Position numbers and translations under genes: made by a program. DNA of 64,000 bases from the human T2T-CHM13v2.0 reference genome, Homo sapiens, in the NCBI RefSeq assembly GCF_009914755.1, contig NC_060935.1. The stretch is one strand, 5' to 3'. The notes beneath the pieces were generated by a model, which saw nothing but the letters and a program-made list of their open reading frames with translations, searched no databases and was not told the origin of the DNA. This document shows, one piece after another, positions 38,136 to 43,313 of the stretch; within the stretch, counting starts at the first letter, position 1; every line of letters begins with the position of its first letter.

Positions 38136-40696
38136 CTGGGTGCAGTACCTCACACCTGTCATCTCAGCACTTTGGGAGGCCGAGGTGGGCAGATCACCTG
38201 AGGTCAGGAGCTCAAGACCAGCCTGACCTAAATGGTGAAACCCTGTCTCTACTGAAAATACAAAATTAGCTGGGCGTGGTGGCGCATGCCTGTAATCTCA
38301 GCTACTTGAGAGGCTGAAGCAGGAGACTCTCTTGAACCTGGGAGGTGGAGGTTATGGCGAGCCGAGATTGTGCCATTGGATTCCAGCCTGGGCAACAAGA
38401 GCGAAACTTGTCTCAAAAAAAAAAGAGGCCAGGTGCGGTGGCTCATGCCTGTAATCCCAGCACTTTGGGAGGCTGAGGCAGGAGGATCACCTGAGGTCAG
38501 GAGTTCAAGACCAGCCTGACAAACATGGTGAAACCTCGTCTCTACTTAAAACACAAAAATTAGCTGGGCATGGTGGCATGTGCCTGTAATCCCAGCTATT
38601 CGGGAGGCTGAGGCAGGAGAATCACTTAAACCTGGGAGGCGAAGGCTACAGTGAGCCGAGATTGCATCAGTGTACTCCAGCCTGGGTGACAGTGTGAGAC
38701 TGTCTCAAAAAAAAAAAAAAAAAAAAAAAAAGAAACCCCATCTTTACAAAAAATACAAAAATTAGCCAGGCATGGTGGCGCAAGGCTGCAGTGAACCAAG
38801 ATCATGCCACTGCACTCCAGCCTGAGTGACAGAGTGAGATGCTGCCTCAAAAGAGAAAAGAAAAAAAAAAAAATGAGAGCAGTGACTGTCCATGGGGCAG
38901 GGGACCGATGGAAGGGGACATGAGTGGTGCTTCTGCAGGGATTGAAATGGTCTCATGACCAGGTTCATGCATTCATCAAAACTCACTACATTTTATGGTG
39001 GAGATTGAGGCACTTTGCTGTACATACAGTTTACCTCAATTACCAAAAAAGACCAAAAGGACACACAGTAAGTGTTCACGGTCATTATCTTTGGGTGCAG
39101 GGTTATAGATTTTTTTGCCTTTAAACTTTCTTTTCCTCTATAAATTTCAGCATTAAGTAGCTGTTTGTTTGGAAGTATACTTTTTTTTTTTTTTTTTTAA
39201 AGTATTTTTTTGGCCAGGTGCGGTGGCTCACACCTGTAATCCCAACACTTTGGGAGGCCAAGGCAAGTAGATCACTTGAGGCCTGGAGTTTAAGACCAGC
39301 CTCGCCAACATGGCGAAACCTCTTCTCTCCTAAAATACCAAAAAATAGCTGGGCGTGGTTGCACATACCTGTAATCCCAGCTATCTGGGAAGCTGAGGCA
39401 CAAGAATCGCTTGAACCTGGGAGATGGAGGCTGCAGTGAGCCGAGATCACACCACTGCACTCTAGCCTGGGTGACACAGCAAGACCATCTCAAAATATAT
39501 ATATATCTTTTTCTTTATTTTTTTCCTTTTTAATTTCTTTTTTCTTTTTGTTTTTGTTTTTTTTTTTTTTTTTTGAGACGAGGTCTCACTCTGTTGCCCA
39601 GGCTGGAGTACAGTGGTGTGATCACGGCTCACTGCAACATCAACCTCCTAGGCTCAAGCAATCCTCACGTTTCAGCCTCTTGACTGGCATGTCACCACAC
39701 CTGGCTAATGTTTTTTTTTTTTTTTGAGACAGAGTCTCACTTTGTCACCCAGGCTGGAGTGCAGTGGCGCGATCTCGGCTCACTGCAATCTCCACCTCCC
39801 GGGTTCACGCCATTCTCCTGCCTCAGCCTCCCAAGGAGCTGGGACTACAGGCGCCCGCCACCACGCCCGGCTAATTTTTTGTATTTTTAGTAGAGATGGG
39901 GTTTCACCATGTTAGCCAGGATGGTCTCGATCTCCTGACCTCGTGATCCGCCCGCCTCGGCCTCCCAAAGTGCTGGGATTACAGGCGTGAGCCACCGCGC
40001 CTGGACTTTTTGTTTTTTGAGACAGAGTCTTGCTCTGTCGCCAGACTGGAGTGCAGTGGCCCGATCTCAGCTCACTGCAACCTCTGCCTCCTGGGTTCAA
40101 GTGAGTCTCCTGCCTCAGCCTCCTAAGTAGCTGAGACTACAGGTGCCCACCACCACACCCAGCTAATTTTTATATTTTTTTGTAGAGACGGGGTTTCACC
40201 ATGTTGTCCAAGCTGGTCTCAAACTCCTGGGCTCAAAAGATCCTCCCACCTCAGCCTCTCAAAGCACTGAGATTACAAGTGTGATCCACTGTGCCCAGTG
40301 AAAAAGTATTTTAAAATTATCTTTGTCTTCAGGAGTAGAAACACTTTTCTTCCTTGAAAGAAAATTAATGCTGGGTCCAGTGGCTCACGCCTGTAATCTC
40401 AGCACTTTGGGAGGCTGAGGCAGGAGGATCTCTTGAGCCCAGGAGTTTGAGACCACCTTGGGCAACACGGCAAGACCCAGTCTCTACAAAAAATAAAAAA
40501 TAAAAAAATAAATTAGGCAAGCGTGGTGGCATGCACCCGTATTTCCAGGAGTTTGAGCCTACAATGAGCCATGAGCCTAGGCAACAGAGTGAGACCTTAC
40601 CTCTTAAAAAAAAAAAAAAAAAAAAAAGAAACACAAAAAACACTAATCACATATTGATCAGTCATTTAAAAAATTAAGAATCTAAAAAGCTCTTCT

Positions 40697-40780
40697 GCTC
40701 GCCTGTCACCATTAAGACATGCCTTTCCTCCCGCTTTGCCATCTGCCATGATGGTGAGACCTCCCCAGCCATGTGGAGCT
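40697..40780 (+). mobile_element. THE1 (MaLR, THE1C/D-like) LTR fragment
   Basis: GCCTGTCACCATTAAGACATGCCTTT...TGCCATGATGGTGAGACCTCCCCAGCCATGTGGAGCT closely resembles the recalled THE1 consensus ...GCCATGATTGTGAGGCCTCCCCAGCCATGTGGAACT. Confidence 0.75.
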
Positions 40781-40916
40781 GCAGTGTCACTGTCATTACC
40801 TCAATAGTCATTGAGTGGTGTTGCTGGTGTTTGGAGCTGTGGCATACCTAATGACCATGCATTCCTCCTATGGAAGGCTTCTGGACAATCACCACTACAG
40901 GTCCTGGGGAAACTAC

Positions 40917-41290
40917 ACAAACCCCTAACATAGAATACGGCCTGGGATGAGAATCACTGTTTGTTATGTGCTTGTCTGGTAGAATCCGTAACAAACCCCT
41001 AACATCGAATACGACCTGGGTTGAGAATCACTGTTCATTATGTGCTTGTCTAGTAGAATCCGTAACAAACCCCTAACATCGAATACGACCTGGGTTGAGA
41101 ATCACCGTTCATTATGTGCTTGTCTAGTAGAATCCGTAACAAACCCCTAACATTGAATACGGCCTGGGTTGAGAATCACCGTTCATTATGTGCTTGTCTA
41201 GTAGAATCCGTAACAAACCCCTAACATTGAATACGGCCTGGGATGATAATCACTGTTCGTTATGTGCTTGTCTAGTAGAATCTATAACAA
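40917..41290. repeat. 74-bp minisatellite, 5 copies
   Basis: ACCCCTAACA recurs at 40921, 40995, 41069, 41143 and 41217. Confidence 0.95.
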
Positions 41291-43313
41291 GTACCTGATG
41301 TGCACTGAATGACAGAAAAATTTAAAAATTAAAAAATAAATAGGCCGGGCAAGGTGGCTCATGCCTGTAATCCCAGCACTTTGGGAGACTGAGGTGGGTG
41401 AATCACCTGAGGTCAGGGGTTCAAGACCAGCCTGGCTAACATAGTGAAACCCCGTCTCTACTAAAAATACAAAAAATCAGCCAGGTGTGGTAGCACATGC
41501 CTGTAATCCCAGCTATTCCGGAGGCTGAGGCAGGAGAATCACTTGAACCCGGGAGGAGGAAGCTGCAGTGAGCTGAGATTGTGCCATTGCACTCCAGCCT
41601 GAGCGACACAGCAAGACTCCGTCTCAAAAAAAAAAATTTTTTTTAAATAGATAAATAAATAAATACGTATAATCCCAGCACTTTAAGACGCTCAGGCGGG
41701 TAGATCACTTGAGGTCAGGAGTTTAAGACCAGCCTGGCCAACATGGTGAAACCCTGTCTGTACTAAAAATACAAAAATTAGCCAGGCATGGCAGCAGGCG
41801 CCTGTAGTCCCAGCTACTTGGGAGGCTGAGGCAGGATAATTGCTTGATCCCAGGAAGTGGAGGTTGCAGTTAGCCAAGATCGTGCCACTGCACTCCAGCC
41901 TGGGTGATGGAGCGAGACTCCGTCTCAAAAAATAAAATAAAGTAAAATAAAGCAGCAGCTGAAAAAAAAATAATGATAATAAAATAAATACATAAATAAA
42001 AAGTTCTTCTATAAAAAGTAGAAGCTGGGCATGGTGGCTCACATCTGCAATCCCAGTACTTTAAGAGGCTGAGGCGGGTGGATCACCTGAGCTCAGGAGT
42101 GTGAGATCAGCCTGGGCAACATGGTAAAACCCCGTCTCTACCAAAAATACAGAAAATTAGCCAGGTGTGGTGGTGGGTGCCTGTAGTCCCAGCTACTTGG
42201 GAGGCTGAGGCACAAGAATCGCTGGAGCCCGGGAGGCAAAGGTTGCAGTGAGCCGAGATTGTGCCACTGCATTCTAGCCTGGGCGACAGAGTGACAGCCT
42301 GTTCCACAAATAAAAATAAAAATAGAAAGTAGAAAAGAAATGGGGGAAAACGTTTCTTACATAGATTTGGTGGGAAAAATATGAATTTGACTTTTGTTTA
42401 CAAACCAAAGTCCACGTTACCGTACCCGAAAAAGCAGCTACAACAAAATCCATCCCTGTCCTTTCCTGTGGCCTTCAGAGCTCCCCATCTGTGCTGAGCA
42501 GACAGGCGCCCTCCTCTCTCACCTTCTCGTCCCCGTGCCCTGTGACACACGGTACCTGTCTGCTGGGTTTGGGCTATGAGAAGTAGCTGAGAAACCTCCA
42601 CCCTCTCTCCAGTTTACTCTGGCTCTAGTAATTTCTATCTACCCTATTCATGTCACCCACCTGAACCTTTATATTACCTCAAAGTCTTCAATCTAAGTAA
42701 AGGGTTCATATGAAGTAGAGACTCCATATGAAAAGAGGCCGAAGGGGCCTAAGTGACCTTTTGCTTGTGCTGCAGTAATAGGAAGCTACAGAAAACATGG
42801 GCACTACGCCCTGTGAGCCTCCCACCATGCACAGGAGCCGCCTTCTGAAGAACGTGCCAGAAGCTGGGAGGGCTTTGTGACAGCAGATGGACGGAGCTCG
42901 GCTCCCAGGAAGGGGCTCAGCATTCGCCCTGCCAGTCGCTGATACTCAGAGACTCAATAGATGATGTTCTCCAAACTTCATAAAATATAAGCACATTTCA
43001 CTACAGGAAGACAAAGGATGAATAATGCCTAGAAAAGGTGAGTATTCACAACGGCCGATGCGCACAAAATTGTTTCCCTTTCTGAAACAAAGCAACCTTA
43101 TTTACAAAAACCAAAACCACCTTAACAACAATAGCTGTCACTTTTCTTTAGGAAAAGCTTCATTTGTAAATGACTCTCCACAGCTCCCTTTTCCAGAAAG
43201 GTGGGGCAGGGGCCTTGTGAGCCAAGGTGGGGCTTGCGCAGCTGGGCACAGGCACCAGGGTGGCCTGGGGTTACTCGGCACAGGTCGTGTCTTCCCATTT
43301 GTTCCAAGGTTAC

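What the first reader, a model, noticed from the sequence alone, without database searches (positions are those of the whole stretch)
40684..42010. Hidden retrocopy of a spliced, THE1-LTR-driven non-coding RNA inside DEAF1 intron 10
Seen, 5' to 3' on the + strand: direct repeat AAAAAGCTCTTCT (40684-40696, after a T, resembling an L1 endonuclease T/AAAA site); 84 bp of THE1-like LTR ending ...CCATGTGGAGCT (40780); ~135 bp of sequence I do not recognise; a 5x74-bp array; two Alu pieces; AATAAA (41946), 10 nt, then an A-rich tail (41962-41997); and AAAAAGTTCTTCT (41998-42010; 12/13 match to the left repeat). Established, from memory of the consensus: THE1/MaLR LTRs act as promoters in oocyte, placenta and tumours, and splice out at ...GTGGAACT|GTGAGT. 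The fragment here covers roughly TSS to splice donor, i.e. an LTR first exon. Inference: an LTR-initiated chimeric lncRNA from another locus was spliced, polyadenylated and inserted here by L1, antisense to DEAF1. It would be a fossil of a germline or early-embryo transcript that repeat annotation would split into unrelated pieces. Caveat: GTCATTACCTC just after the junction faintly resembles continuing LTR consensus.
Basis: partly seen in the sequence, partly recalled or inferred. Interest (0 to 1): 0.8.

Follow-up and report, generated by a model that had tools for sequence, protein, structure and literature searches.

The report
Fossil retrocopy of LTR-driven PARM1 transcript
A 1.3-kb insert in an intron of human DEAF1 is an old, dead, L1-made copy of a short spliced RNA that began in a THE1 retrovirus-like LTR inside the PARM1 gene on chromosome 4 and ran through PARM1's last two exons, so it records that this LTR once worked as a promoter in the germline or early embryo.

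Summary
A 12/13 direct repeat (40684-40696 / 41998-42010) brackets an 84-bp THE1 LTR piece, about 135 bp of unique sequence, a 74-bp x5.1 array, two Alus and A-rich tracts.

The predicted parent locus exists, on chromosome 4 of the same assembly, + strand. It has a sense THE1 LTR whose GT donor sits exactly where the window's LTR piece stops. A 4,296-bp intron follows, then a 79-bp exon, a 12,201-bp intron, and a terminal exon holding one copy of the 74-mer.

Those two exons are the transmembrane and cytoplasmic-tail exons of PARM1 (Pfam PF17061), so the parent is an intronic-LTR isoform of a coding gene, not a lncRNA. The copy's 5' end lies 25-30 nt after the LTR's TATA box.

The match to the parent stops at 41316. 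The Alus are later insertions into the A tail, and the AATAAA at 41946 lies in the second Alu's tail.

The chromosome-4 LTR is closer to the copy than any of 39 independently chosen THE1 copies. Divergence of about 14-17% suggests an age of roughly 35-65 Myr. The reading frame is broken.

This is a new member of a known kind. I found nothing in print on it. Primate orthologues and RNA data could not be checked.

The parts
40684..40696 (+). Left target-site duplication AAAAAGCTCTTCT, preceded by T (L1 endonuclease-type T/AAAA site)
   Evidence: only 2 matches with up to 1 mismatch in the window, 0.12 expected.
40697..40780 (+). First exon of the copied RNA: 84 bp of a THE1 LTR, from about 25-30 nt after the LTR's TATA box to the base before its GT splice donor
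   Evidence: THE1 copies genome-wide match only this part. (alignment to C4:78369645-78369725; TATAAAA at 78369622; donor ACT|GTGAGT). (25 of 27 copies that reach this end continue with GT, 20 of them GTGAGT). (the chromosome-4 copy is the closest).
40781..40858 (+). Copy of the 79-bp PARM1 transmembrane exon (C4:78374022-78374100), with a 1-bp deletion that breaks the frame
   Evidence: 19 mismatches in 78 aligned. (parent exon matches Pfam PARM positions 244-268). (frameshift).
40859..41316 (+). Copy of the start of PARM1's terminal exon (C4:78386302 to about 78386481): cytoplasmic tail, stop-codon region and the first ~95 nt of the 3'UTR. Includes the tandem array.
   Evidence: window 40815-40925 scores 62.9 bits against PF17061 positions 255-291, running across the exon-exon junction with no intron.
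40917..41290 (+). 74-bp x5.1 tandem array that arose in place from a segment present once in the parent (about C4:78386379-78386451)
   Evidence: inner copies 71-73/74 identical, outer copies 66-68/74 to the others.
41317..41342 (+). First piece of the retrocopy's decayed poly(A) tail (19 A, 7 T of 26)
   Evidence: the parent match ends just before it.
41343..41636 (+). Full-length Alu with an A11 tail, a secondary insertion into the tail
   Evidence: Flanking repeat is only 11/12 and low-complexity.
41637..41669 (+). Second piece of the A/T-rich tail. Its last 13 nt (41657-41669) are the candidate left target-site duplication of the second Alu.
41670..41981 (+). 5'-truncated Alu (body to about 41926) with its own A-rich tail, which holds the AATAAA at 41946. 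A secondary insertion.
41982..41997 (+). Candidate right target-site duplication of the second Alu (41982-41994, 12/13 to 41657-41669) plus the last 3 nt of the retrocopy's tail
41998..42010 (+). Right target-site duplication AAAAAGTTCTTCT (12/13)

Best explanation
Window 40697-41997 is an L1-mediated processed retrocopy (a dead pseudogene) of a short chimeric RNA from the PARM1 locus on chromosome 4.

Shown:
- A sense-oriented solitary THE1 LTR lies in the intron between PARM1's large mucin-domain exon and its transmembrane exon.
- The copy joins about 81-84 nt of that kind of LTR to the 79-nt transmembrane exon and then to the terminal exon, exactly at the GT and AG sites. Two introns of 4,296 and 12,201 bp are removed.
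- The copy is flanked by a 13-bp target-site duplication at a T/AAAAAG site and ends in A-rich sequence.

Inferred:
- Transcription started at the LTR's own promoter, because the 5' end lies 25-30 nt after its TATA box.
- The RNA was cleaved at a proximal site about 95 nt after the stop codon. In today's parent an AATAAG lies 28 nt upstream and a GU-rich stretch lies downstream.
- L1 ORF2p reverse-transcribed the RNA into DEAF1 intron 10 in a germline or early-embryo cell of an anthropoid ancestor, roughly 35-65 Myr ago.

Later changes at the insertion site:
- A 1-bp and a 14-bp deletion and substitutions destroyed the frame.
- A 74-bp piece spanning the stop codon and 3'UTR expanded to about 5 tandem copies.
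- Two Alus inserted into the tail.

The copy carries none of the LTR's promoter region, so it was dead on arrival. I see no sign that it does anything today.
For: - Uniqueness: the ~135 bp after the LTR piece matches only two places in the 3.1-Gb assembly besides itself. Both are on C4, + strand, in order and 12 kb apart (3 of 3 candidates scored; E 2e-14 and 1e-5).
- Structure of the parent: local blastn over 200 kb of C4 adds the LTR (78369652-78369726, the only + strand THE1 hit; four others are on the minus strand) and shows a single 74-mer in the terminal exon.
- Splice sites, read directly: ACT|GTGAGT, CACAG|GCAGC, ATCAG|GTGAGA, CACCAG|GCATTCC.
- Identity of the parent: the parent exons are PARM (PF17061; 46.7 and 65.6 bits). 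A family search of the whole genome gives 4 matches: three PARM1 exons on C4 and window 40815-40925 (62.9 bits, cut-off 35), which is contiguous across the exon junction.
- Target-site duplication: 2 matches observed, 0.12 expected.
- Donor: in the sample picked by U3 likeness (39 copies plus the chromosome-4 copy), 27 of 40 align to the end of the retro piece. Of those, 25 continue with GT and 20 with GTGAGT.
- Source LTR: over the 66 bases flanking a 10-bp deletion, the chromosome-4 copy differs from the retro piece by 7 edits. None of the 39 copies chosen without reference to the retro piece is as close (range 9-28). Among the 25 best genome-wide hits to the retro piece, only 1 is closer and 1 is equal.
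- 5' end: TATAAAA at 78369622; the retro 5' end aligns to 78369647-78369652.
- Alus: no Alu lies between the 3' end and 78399290, where a minus-strand Alu sits (which tabulated hits only up to 78400000). The second Alu has a 12/13 flanking repeat.
[quoted passage not shown] Human oocyte transcripts initiate in THE1 (PMC6102241).
Against: - Identity to the parent is low: 73-78% by BLAST with gaps and 62 mismatches in 372 aligned bases overall.
- The transmembrane exon is more diverged (19/78) than the LTR (10/74) or the 3'UTR (9/60 and 12/87), and I cannot explain that beyond small numbers.
- The chromosome-4 LTR lacks about 10 bp that the copy has. That deletion must be later than the retroposition.
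- I saw no rare variant shared by the copy and the chromosome-4 LTR (by eye).
- Today's parent has no canonical AATAAA before the inferred cleavage site.
- The 5' end could be a truncation that happens to fall at a TSS-like position.
- No primate orthologue, CAGE or RNA-seq could be consulted.
- PARM1 does not occur in the text or the 4 held supplements of the oocyte LTR-transcript paper. It also does not occur in the held supplements of two embryo or development TE-transcript papers (1 and 5 files). So there is no evidence that the isoform is made today.
Confidence: 0.88

Rival explanations
1. A 5'-truncated retrocopy of an ordinary PARM1 pre-mRNA product. Part of the intronic THE1 was used as an internal (cassette) exon of a transcript started at PARM1's normal promoter, and L1 reverse transcription stopped inside that exon.
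For: L1-made retrocopies are often 5'-truncated (established knowledge). AG dinucleotides lie 15-20 nt upstream of the copy's 5' end in the chromosome-4 LTR. The donor and downstream structure would be identical.
Against: The 5' end falls 25-30 nt after the LTR's TATA box, which is where a TATA-driven start is expected. A random truncation point would rarely land there. THE1 LTRs are documented as initiating first exons that use this donor (PMC5134097). No upstream PARM1 exon sequence is present.
Confidence: 0.07
2. One reading: the parent is an LTR-driven lncRNA whose last exon contained the two Alus and ended at the AATAAA at 41946.
For: The outer direct repeats enclose the Alus, and an AATAAA precedes the final A-rich stretch.
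Against: The downstream exons are PARM1 coding exons. The parent match ends at 41316 and is followed directly by A-rich sequence. The parent has unique 3'UTR there, with no GT donor at that point and no plus-strand Alu in the 13.5 kb tabulated downstream. The second Alu has its own 12/13 flanking repeat.
Confidence: 0.03
3. A chimera made by L1 reverse-transcriptase template switching from a PARM1 mRNA to an unrelated THE1 RNA, or a PARM1 retrocopy that landed beside a pre-existing THE1 fragment.
For: Template-switch chimeric retrocopies exist (recalled; the review PMC5470649 mentions chimeric retrocopies).
Against: The join coincides to the base with both the LTR's GT donor and the exon's AG acceptor. 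The target-site duplication encloses the LTR piece. A sense THE1 sits 4.3 kb upstream of that exon in the parent and is the closest copy sampled.
Confidence: 0.02

Closest known systems
L1-mediated processed pseudogenes (gene retrocopies)
   Same: Introns are removed exactly. There is an A-rich 3' tail and a 13-bp target-site duplication at a T/AAAA site. The copy is on a different chromosome from the parent, carries no promoter, and has a decayed frame.
   Different: The template was not the gene's normal mRNA. It was a ~320-nt isoform that starts in an intronic LTR and holds only the last two exons with a very short 3'UTR. Protein-based pseudogene finders would see at most ~37 residues.
THE1B LTR-driven CSF1R transcript and other LTR-initiated chimeric transcripts (PMC5134097, passages read)
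   Same: A THE1 LTR starts transcription and its internal splice donor joins the LTR exon to a host-gene exon.
   Different: There the LTR lies upstream of the gene, yields a full-length protein and is seen as RNA in lymphoma. Here it is intronic, would give at most a truncated product, and is known only from a genomic fossil.
Oocyte LTR-initiated transcription units (PMC6102241, passages read)
   Same: MaLR/THE1 LTRs act as germline promoters that splice into genic exons. This is the kind of cell in which a heritable retrocopy can be made.
   Different: PARM1 is not in that paper's text or its 4 held supplements. The tissue of the ancient transcript is inferred only from heritability.
Processed pseudogenes as records of old transcript variants (Shemesh et al. 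[quoted passage not shown]
   Same: A retrocopy preserves an alternative transcript structure of its parent.
   Different: I saw only the title, in a reference list; the paper is not held and its content is recalled. I do not know whether LTR-initiated first exons were among its cases.
SVA composite retrotransposons
   Same: A superficial likeness: an LTR-derived piece, a tandem array, Alu sequence, an A tail and a target-site duplication.
   Different: This is single-copy. Its unique part matches only PARM1 and the array matches only itself. The array is a local expansion of a parent segment present once, and the Alus are later insertions.

Membership tests
L1-mediated processed retrocopy | Parent introns are absent, with joins exactly at the parent's splice sites | tested here: met
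   Two joins correspond to GT-AG introns of 4,296 and 12,201 bp on C4. The Pfam match runs across the second join.
L1-mediated processed retrocopy | Target-site duplication of about 7-20 bp at a TT/AAAA-like site | tested here: met
   A 13 bp repeat, 12/13 identical, preceded by T. Only 2 matches in the window against 0.12 expected.
L1-mediated processed retrocopy | Poly(A) tail directly after the 3' end of the copied RNA | tested here: met
   The parent match ends at 41316. 41317-41342 is 19 A and 7 T of 26. The tail is decayed and split by two Alus.
L1-mediated processed retrocopy | An empty site in species that diverged before the insertion | not testable with these tools
   No primate genomes are held; only the window's own assembly could be searched.
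LTR-initiated chimeric transcript (THE1/MaLR alternative promoter) | A sense LTR upstream of the acceptor exon in the parent locus | tested here: met
   A THE1 LTR at about C4:78369472-78369806, + strand, 4.3 kb upstream of the transmembrane exon and downstream of the mucin exon at 78352563-78353291.
LTR-initiated chimeric transcript (THE1/MaLR alternative promoter) | The first exon ends at the LTR's conserved splice donor | tested here: met
   The retro piece ends at ..GGAGCT and the parent continues GTGAGT. Of 27 sampled copies that reach this end, 25 have GT here.
LTR-initiated chimeric transcript (THE1/MaLR alternative promoter) | Transcription starts at the LTR's own start site | tested here: inconclusive
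   The 5' end of the copy aligns 25-30 nt after TATAAAA. This fits a start site, but a 5' truncation cannot be excluded and no CAGE data were available.
LTR-initiated chimeric transcript (THE1/MaLR alternative promoter) | The transcript is observed as RNA | not testable with these tools
   No expression data. PARM1 is absent from the held supplements of three relevant papers.
   The parent exons match Pfam PARM positions 244-296 above the curated cut-off. The copy itself scores 62.9 bits.
SVA-like composite retrotransposon | Many dispersed copies sharing the same composite structure | tested here: not met
   The unique part matches only PARM1 and the array matches only itself.
THE1 subfamily assignment (THE1A-D versus MST) | Match to a Dfam/Repbase subfamily model | not testable with these tools
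No repeat library is on hand.

The most novel reading that the evidence does not exclude
The THE1 LTR in PARM1's intron may be a still-usable germline, early-embryo or tumour promoter. In today's chromosome-4 sequence it keeps its TATA box and GT donor. Its last ATG reads in frame into the transmembrane exon, giving a 57-codon ORF (an earlier ATG gives 71 codons). That ORF is an LTR-started mini-PARM1 with only the membrane anchor and cytoplasmic tail. The DEAF1-intron copy would then be proof that this isoform was already made in heritable cells tens of millions of years ago. It may also be the first recognised member of a wider class: retrocopies that begin with an LTR first exon. Such copies could be mined to date when individual LTR promoters were active.
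Probability: 0.2. Interest if true: 0.55.

Novelty: new member of a known kind. Interest (0 to 1): 0.4.

Why it matters
Heritable retrocopies can only be made from RNAs present in germline or early-embryo cells. This insert is therefore physical evidence that one particular THE1 LTR acted as an intronic promoter of PARM1 in such cells of an anthropoid ancestor, using the same donor that THE1-driven transcripts use today.

It also shows how such a fossil escapes annotation. It is short and ~15% diverged, its frame is broken, and it is split by a tandem array and two Alus. The RefSeq table supplied for the window lists nothing there.

In practice it explains a 74-bp VNTR in DEAF1 intron 10. I found no sign that the insert affects DEAF1.

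Tried and rejected
- The own-genome search with the 74-mer alone found only the window's own array. The single parental copy appeared only with local word-size-7 blastn.
- Ungapped identity of the chromosome-4 LTR to the retro piece came out at 86.5% or 91.8%, depending on how the aligner split the 10-bp gap. There were 19 co-optimal alignments. I dropped that measure and used edit distance over the 66 bases flanking the gap.
- A first attempt at that count gave meaningless numbers because the end-gap settings were wrong, so I discarded it.
- In one search I included one intron base in the LTR exon, which put the wrong ATG in frame. One search corrects this.
- Rfam: nothing matches in 40697-41342. 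The only matches are Alu-related (SRP, mir-1268, mir-3135, mir-1285, all below gathering score) plus one chance hit.
- Literature searches returned nothing relevant: PARM1+THE1 (4 papers, the 2 listed irrelevant), PARM1+LTR+chimeric (0 papers), PARM1P (0 papers), PARM1+pseudogene+DEAF1 (1 irrelevant paper). In the at-least-2-of-5 and at-least-3-of-4 term searches, none of the 15 listed papers each contained PARM1.
- A second short THE1 piece spanning the TSS-like position to the donor, on chromosome 19, was looked at once and not resolved.

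
Full report
**1. What is in the window.**

The sequence shows the following, in order on the + strand:
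- AAAAAGCTCTTCT at 40684-40696, preceded by T.
- An 84-bp piece (40697-40780) ending in ..GTGGAGCT.
- Unique sequence up to 40916.
- A 74-bp array at 40917-41290 (TRF: 5.1 copies, 95% matches).
- A short unique stretch up to 41316.
- A-rich sequence.
- A full-length Alu (41343-41625 plus A11).
- A/T-rich sequence.
- A 5'-truncated Alu (about 41670-41926) with a long A-rich tail.
- AAAAAGTTCTTCT at 41998-42010.

With up to one mismatch, the 13-mer occurs only at these two places on either strand of the window, where 0.12 matches are expected from shuffles. Rfam finds only Alu-type sub-threshold matches (SRP RNA and Alu-derived miRNA families) from 41344 onward, and nothing in 40697-41342.

**2. 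The LTR piece.**

I searched the window's own 3.1-Gb assembly with 40697-40990. The search listed 44 matches (40 of 842 candidates scored). One is the query's own place, five are the other copies of the array, and 38 are copies elsewhere that cover only query bases 1-89 at 83-89% identity. This piece is therefore a member of a very abundant family.

In an alignment with 25 of those copies and the chromosome-4 copy, the piece starts about 25-30 nt after a conserved TTTTATAAA motif. It stops exactly where most of the other copies continue with GTGAGTCCATTAA. In a second sample chosen without reference to the piece, 27 of 40 copies align to its end. Of those 27, 25 continue with GT and 20 with GTGAGT.

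**3. The parent locus.**

Window 40779-40925 matches only two other places in the genome (3 of 3 candidates scored):
- C4:78374022-78374093 (query 3-73, 78% identity).
- C4:78386297-78386367 (query 76-146, 86% identity).

Both are on the + strand, in order, and 12 kb apart.

I fetched 200 kb around them and ran sensitive local blastn. This added a THE1 LTR at 78369652-78369726. It is the only + strand match to the LTR piece in the 200 kb; four others are on the minus strand. The search also showed that the terminal segment (78386297-78386481) holds one copy of the 74-mer and the sequence that follows the array in the window.

Read directly, the boundaries are canonical:
- LTR ..GGAACT|GTGAGT.
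- Acceptor ..TTCACAG|GCAGC.
- Donor ..ATCAG|GTGAGA.
- Acceptor ..CCACCAG|GCATTCC.

The introns removed are 4,296 and 12,201 bp. The joins in the window coincide with these sites to the base.

**4. The parent is PARM1, not a lncRNA.**

- Translations of the two chromosome-4 exons match Pfam PF17061 (PARM) at profile positions 244-268 (46.7 bits) and 270-296 of 296 (65.6 bits). The cut-off is 35.
- A search of the whole genome with that family gives four matches.
  - A large exon at C4:78352563-78353291 (positions 1-243).
  - The two exons above.
  - Window 40815-40925 (62.9 bits, positions 255-291).
- The window match is contiguous across the exon-exon join. The retrocopy is therefore the only other PARM-like sequence found in the genome.
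- The LTR lies between the large exon and the transmembrane exon, in sense orientation.
- The exon numbers (2, 3, 4) and the chromosomal band are recalled, not tested.

**5. Is that LTR the source?**

A cis-spliced RNA must start upstream of the acceptor exon, and there is one sense THE1 in the region. I also tested likeness.

The chromosome-4 copy lacks about 10 bp that the retro piece has. Identity measures therefore depended on gap placement (86.5%, 91.8%, with 19 co-optimal alignments), and I discarded them. Over the 66 bases on either side of the gap, the results were:
- The chromosome-4 copy is 7 edits from the retro piece.
- Among 39 copies picked only by likeness of their upstream LTR half to the chromosome-4 copy, none is as close (9 to 28 edits).
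- Among the 25 best genome-wide hits to the retro piece itself, one is closer (6 edits) and one is equal.

This supports the chromosome-4 LTR as the source. It does not prove it, and I saw no rare variant shared by the two (by eye). The 10-bp deletion must then be younger than the retroposition.

**6. Ends of the copied RNA.**

- *5' end.* TATAAAA starts at C4:78369622, and the first base of the copy aligns to 78369647-78369652. This is 25-30 nt downstream, where a TATA-directed start is expected from general knowledge of Pol II promoters. It favours initiation in the LTR over a chance 5' truncation, but it is an inference.
- *3' end.* The match stops at window 41316, about C4:78386481, roughly 95 nt after the stop codon. 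It is followed at once by a stretch of 19 A and 7 T.
- *Cleavage signals.* Today's parent has AATAAG 28 nt upstream of that point and a GU/U-rich stretch just downstream. It has no canonical AATAAA. Use of a proximal poly(A) site is my inference.

**7. The Alus are later arrivals.**

In the parent, unique 3'UTR continues past the 3' end, and there is no GT donor at that point. No Alu lies between the 3' end and a minus-strand Alu 12.8 kb downstream at 78399290. One search tabulated hits only up to 78400000, about 13.5 kb downstream.

The truncated Alu is bracketed by AAATAAATACGTA (41657-41669, abutting its 5' end) and AAATAAATACATA (41982-41994), a 12/13 match. The full-length Alu has only an 11/12 low-complexity candidate repeat, which I treat as ambiguous.

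The AATAAA at 41946 lies in the second Alu's tail. The outer 13-bp repeat is therefore the target-site duplication of the original ~320-nt retrocopy plus its tail.

**8. Decay, array and age.**

- *Divergence from the parent.*
  - LTR: 10 mismatches in 74 aligned bases.
  - Transmembrane exon: 19 in 78.
  - Coding part of the terminal exon: 12 in 73.
  - 3'UTR: 9 in 60 (first array copy) and 12 in 87 (last copy plus end).
  - Total: 62 of 372. The two 3'UTR rows align to the same parent segment and are not independent.
- *Frame.* The frame is broken by a 1-bp deletion in the transmembrane exon. The end of the coding region has a 14-bp deletion.
- *Array.* The unit runs from just before the stop codon into the 3'UTR, and all copies share the 14-bp deletion. 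Inner copies are 71-73/74 identical. The outer copies are 66-68/74 identical to the others. This points to an old first duplication followed by recent expansion.
- *Age.* Taking about 14% for the parts that are neutral on both sides, and rates recalled from primate comparisons, I put the insertion at roughly 35-65 Myr. This fits THE1B being shared by Old and New World primates (PMC5134097). My recalled reading of both Alus as AluS-type also fits. This is an estimate, not a measurement.
- *Unexplained.* The higher divergence of the transmembrane exon remains unexplained.

**9. Mechanism and rivals.**

The best reading is an LTR-initiated, spliced, polyadenylated PARM1 isoform copied by L1 into DEAF1 intron 10, antisense to the host gene. 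It carries no promoter and is inert.

- A 5'-truncated copy of a transcript with an exonised LTR cannot be excluded (about 7%).
- Template switching, or insertion beside a pre-existing LTR fragment, is contradicted. Both splice sites coincide exactly with the join, and the target-site duplication encloses the LTR piece.
- The lncRNA-with-Alus version is contradicted by sections 4 and 7.

**10. What is known.**

- THE1 LTRs that start transcripts and donate a splice donor are documented (CSF1R; PMC5134097, passages).
- THE1-initiated transcripts occur in human oocytes (PMC6102241, passages).
- That processed pseudogenes preserve old transcript variants is, as I recall, the point of Shemesh et al. 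2006. I saw only its title in a reference list and the paper is not held.
- I found nothing in print linking PARM1 to an LTR promoter, to a pseudogene or to DEAF1. The direct term searches were made, and none of the papers listed contained PARM1.
- PARM1 is absent from the held supplements of three relevant papers. Supplements that are not held could still list it.
- The hub's RefSeq table has no entry at the site. GENCODE and the retrogene databases were not available.

**11. Verdict.**

This is a real and neatly resolved feature. It is a new member of a known kind: a processed pseudogene made from an LTR-initiated isoform. It is of moderate interest as a dated fossil of LTR promoter activity, and there is no evidence of present function.

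Noticed in passing
L024 and L025/L026 (C4:78369674 and 78369716, read into 78374022-78374100 and 78386302-78386386): In today's chromosome-4 sequence, two ATGs of the THE1 first exon read in frame through the splice into PARM1's transmembrane and tail exons. They give ORFs of 71 and 57 codons. The LTR isoform could therefore encode an anchor-plus-tail mini-protein. The same ATG in the window copy (40771) starts in frame, but the frame is then lost through the 1-bp deletion.
   Followed up: partly
L026 about 2453-2540 (C4:78386453-78386540): There may be a proximal poly(A) site in the PARM1 3'UTR. AATAAG lies 28 nt before the point where the retrocopy ends, and a GU/U-rich run lies just after it. 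No 3'-end data were available.
   Followed up: no
L100 1503-1593 (C19:51229503-51229593): This is another ~90-bp THE1 piece that begins near the start-site position and ends at the donor position. It is flanked on both sides by sequence that does not look like THE1. It could be a second LTR-first-exon fossil or just a deletion remnant. I identified no target-site duplication or parent.
   Followed up: partly
window 40991-41212: The three inner copies of the 74-bp array differ by only 1-3 bases. This suggests recent expansion, so the array in DEAF1 intron 10 may vary in copy number among people.
   Followed up: no
window 40781-40858: The copy of the transmembrane exon is more diverged from its parent (19/78) than the LTR or 3'UTR parts (about 14%). 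Only 2 of the changes are classic CpG transitions. I have no explanation beyond small numbers.
   Followed up: partly
L024 about 5680-5690 (C4:78369680-78369690): The PARM1-intron THE1 lacks about 10 bp that the window copy and most other THE1 copies have. The retrocopy thus preserves an older state of that LTR.
   Followed up: partly
window 41478-41529, 41546-41605, 41697-41757, 41779-41830 and 41847-41906: There are sub-threshold Rfam matches to mir-1268, mir-3135 and mir-1285 inside the Alus. I take them to be ordinary Alu-derived likenesses.
   Followed up: no
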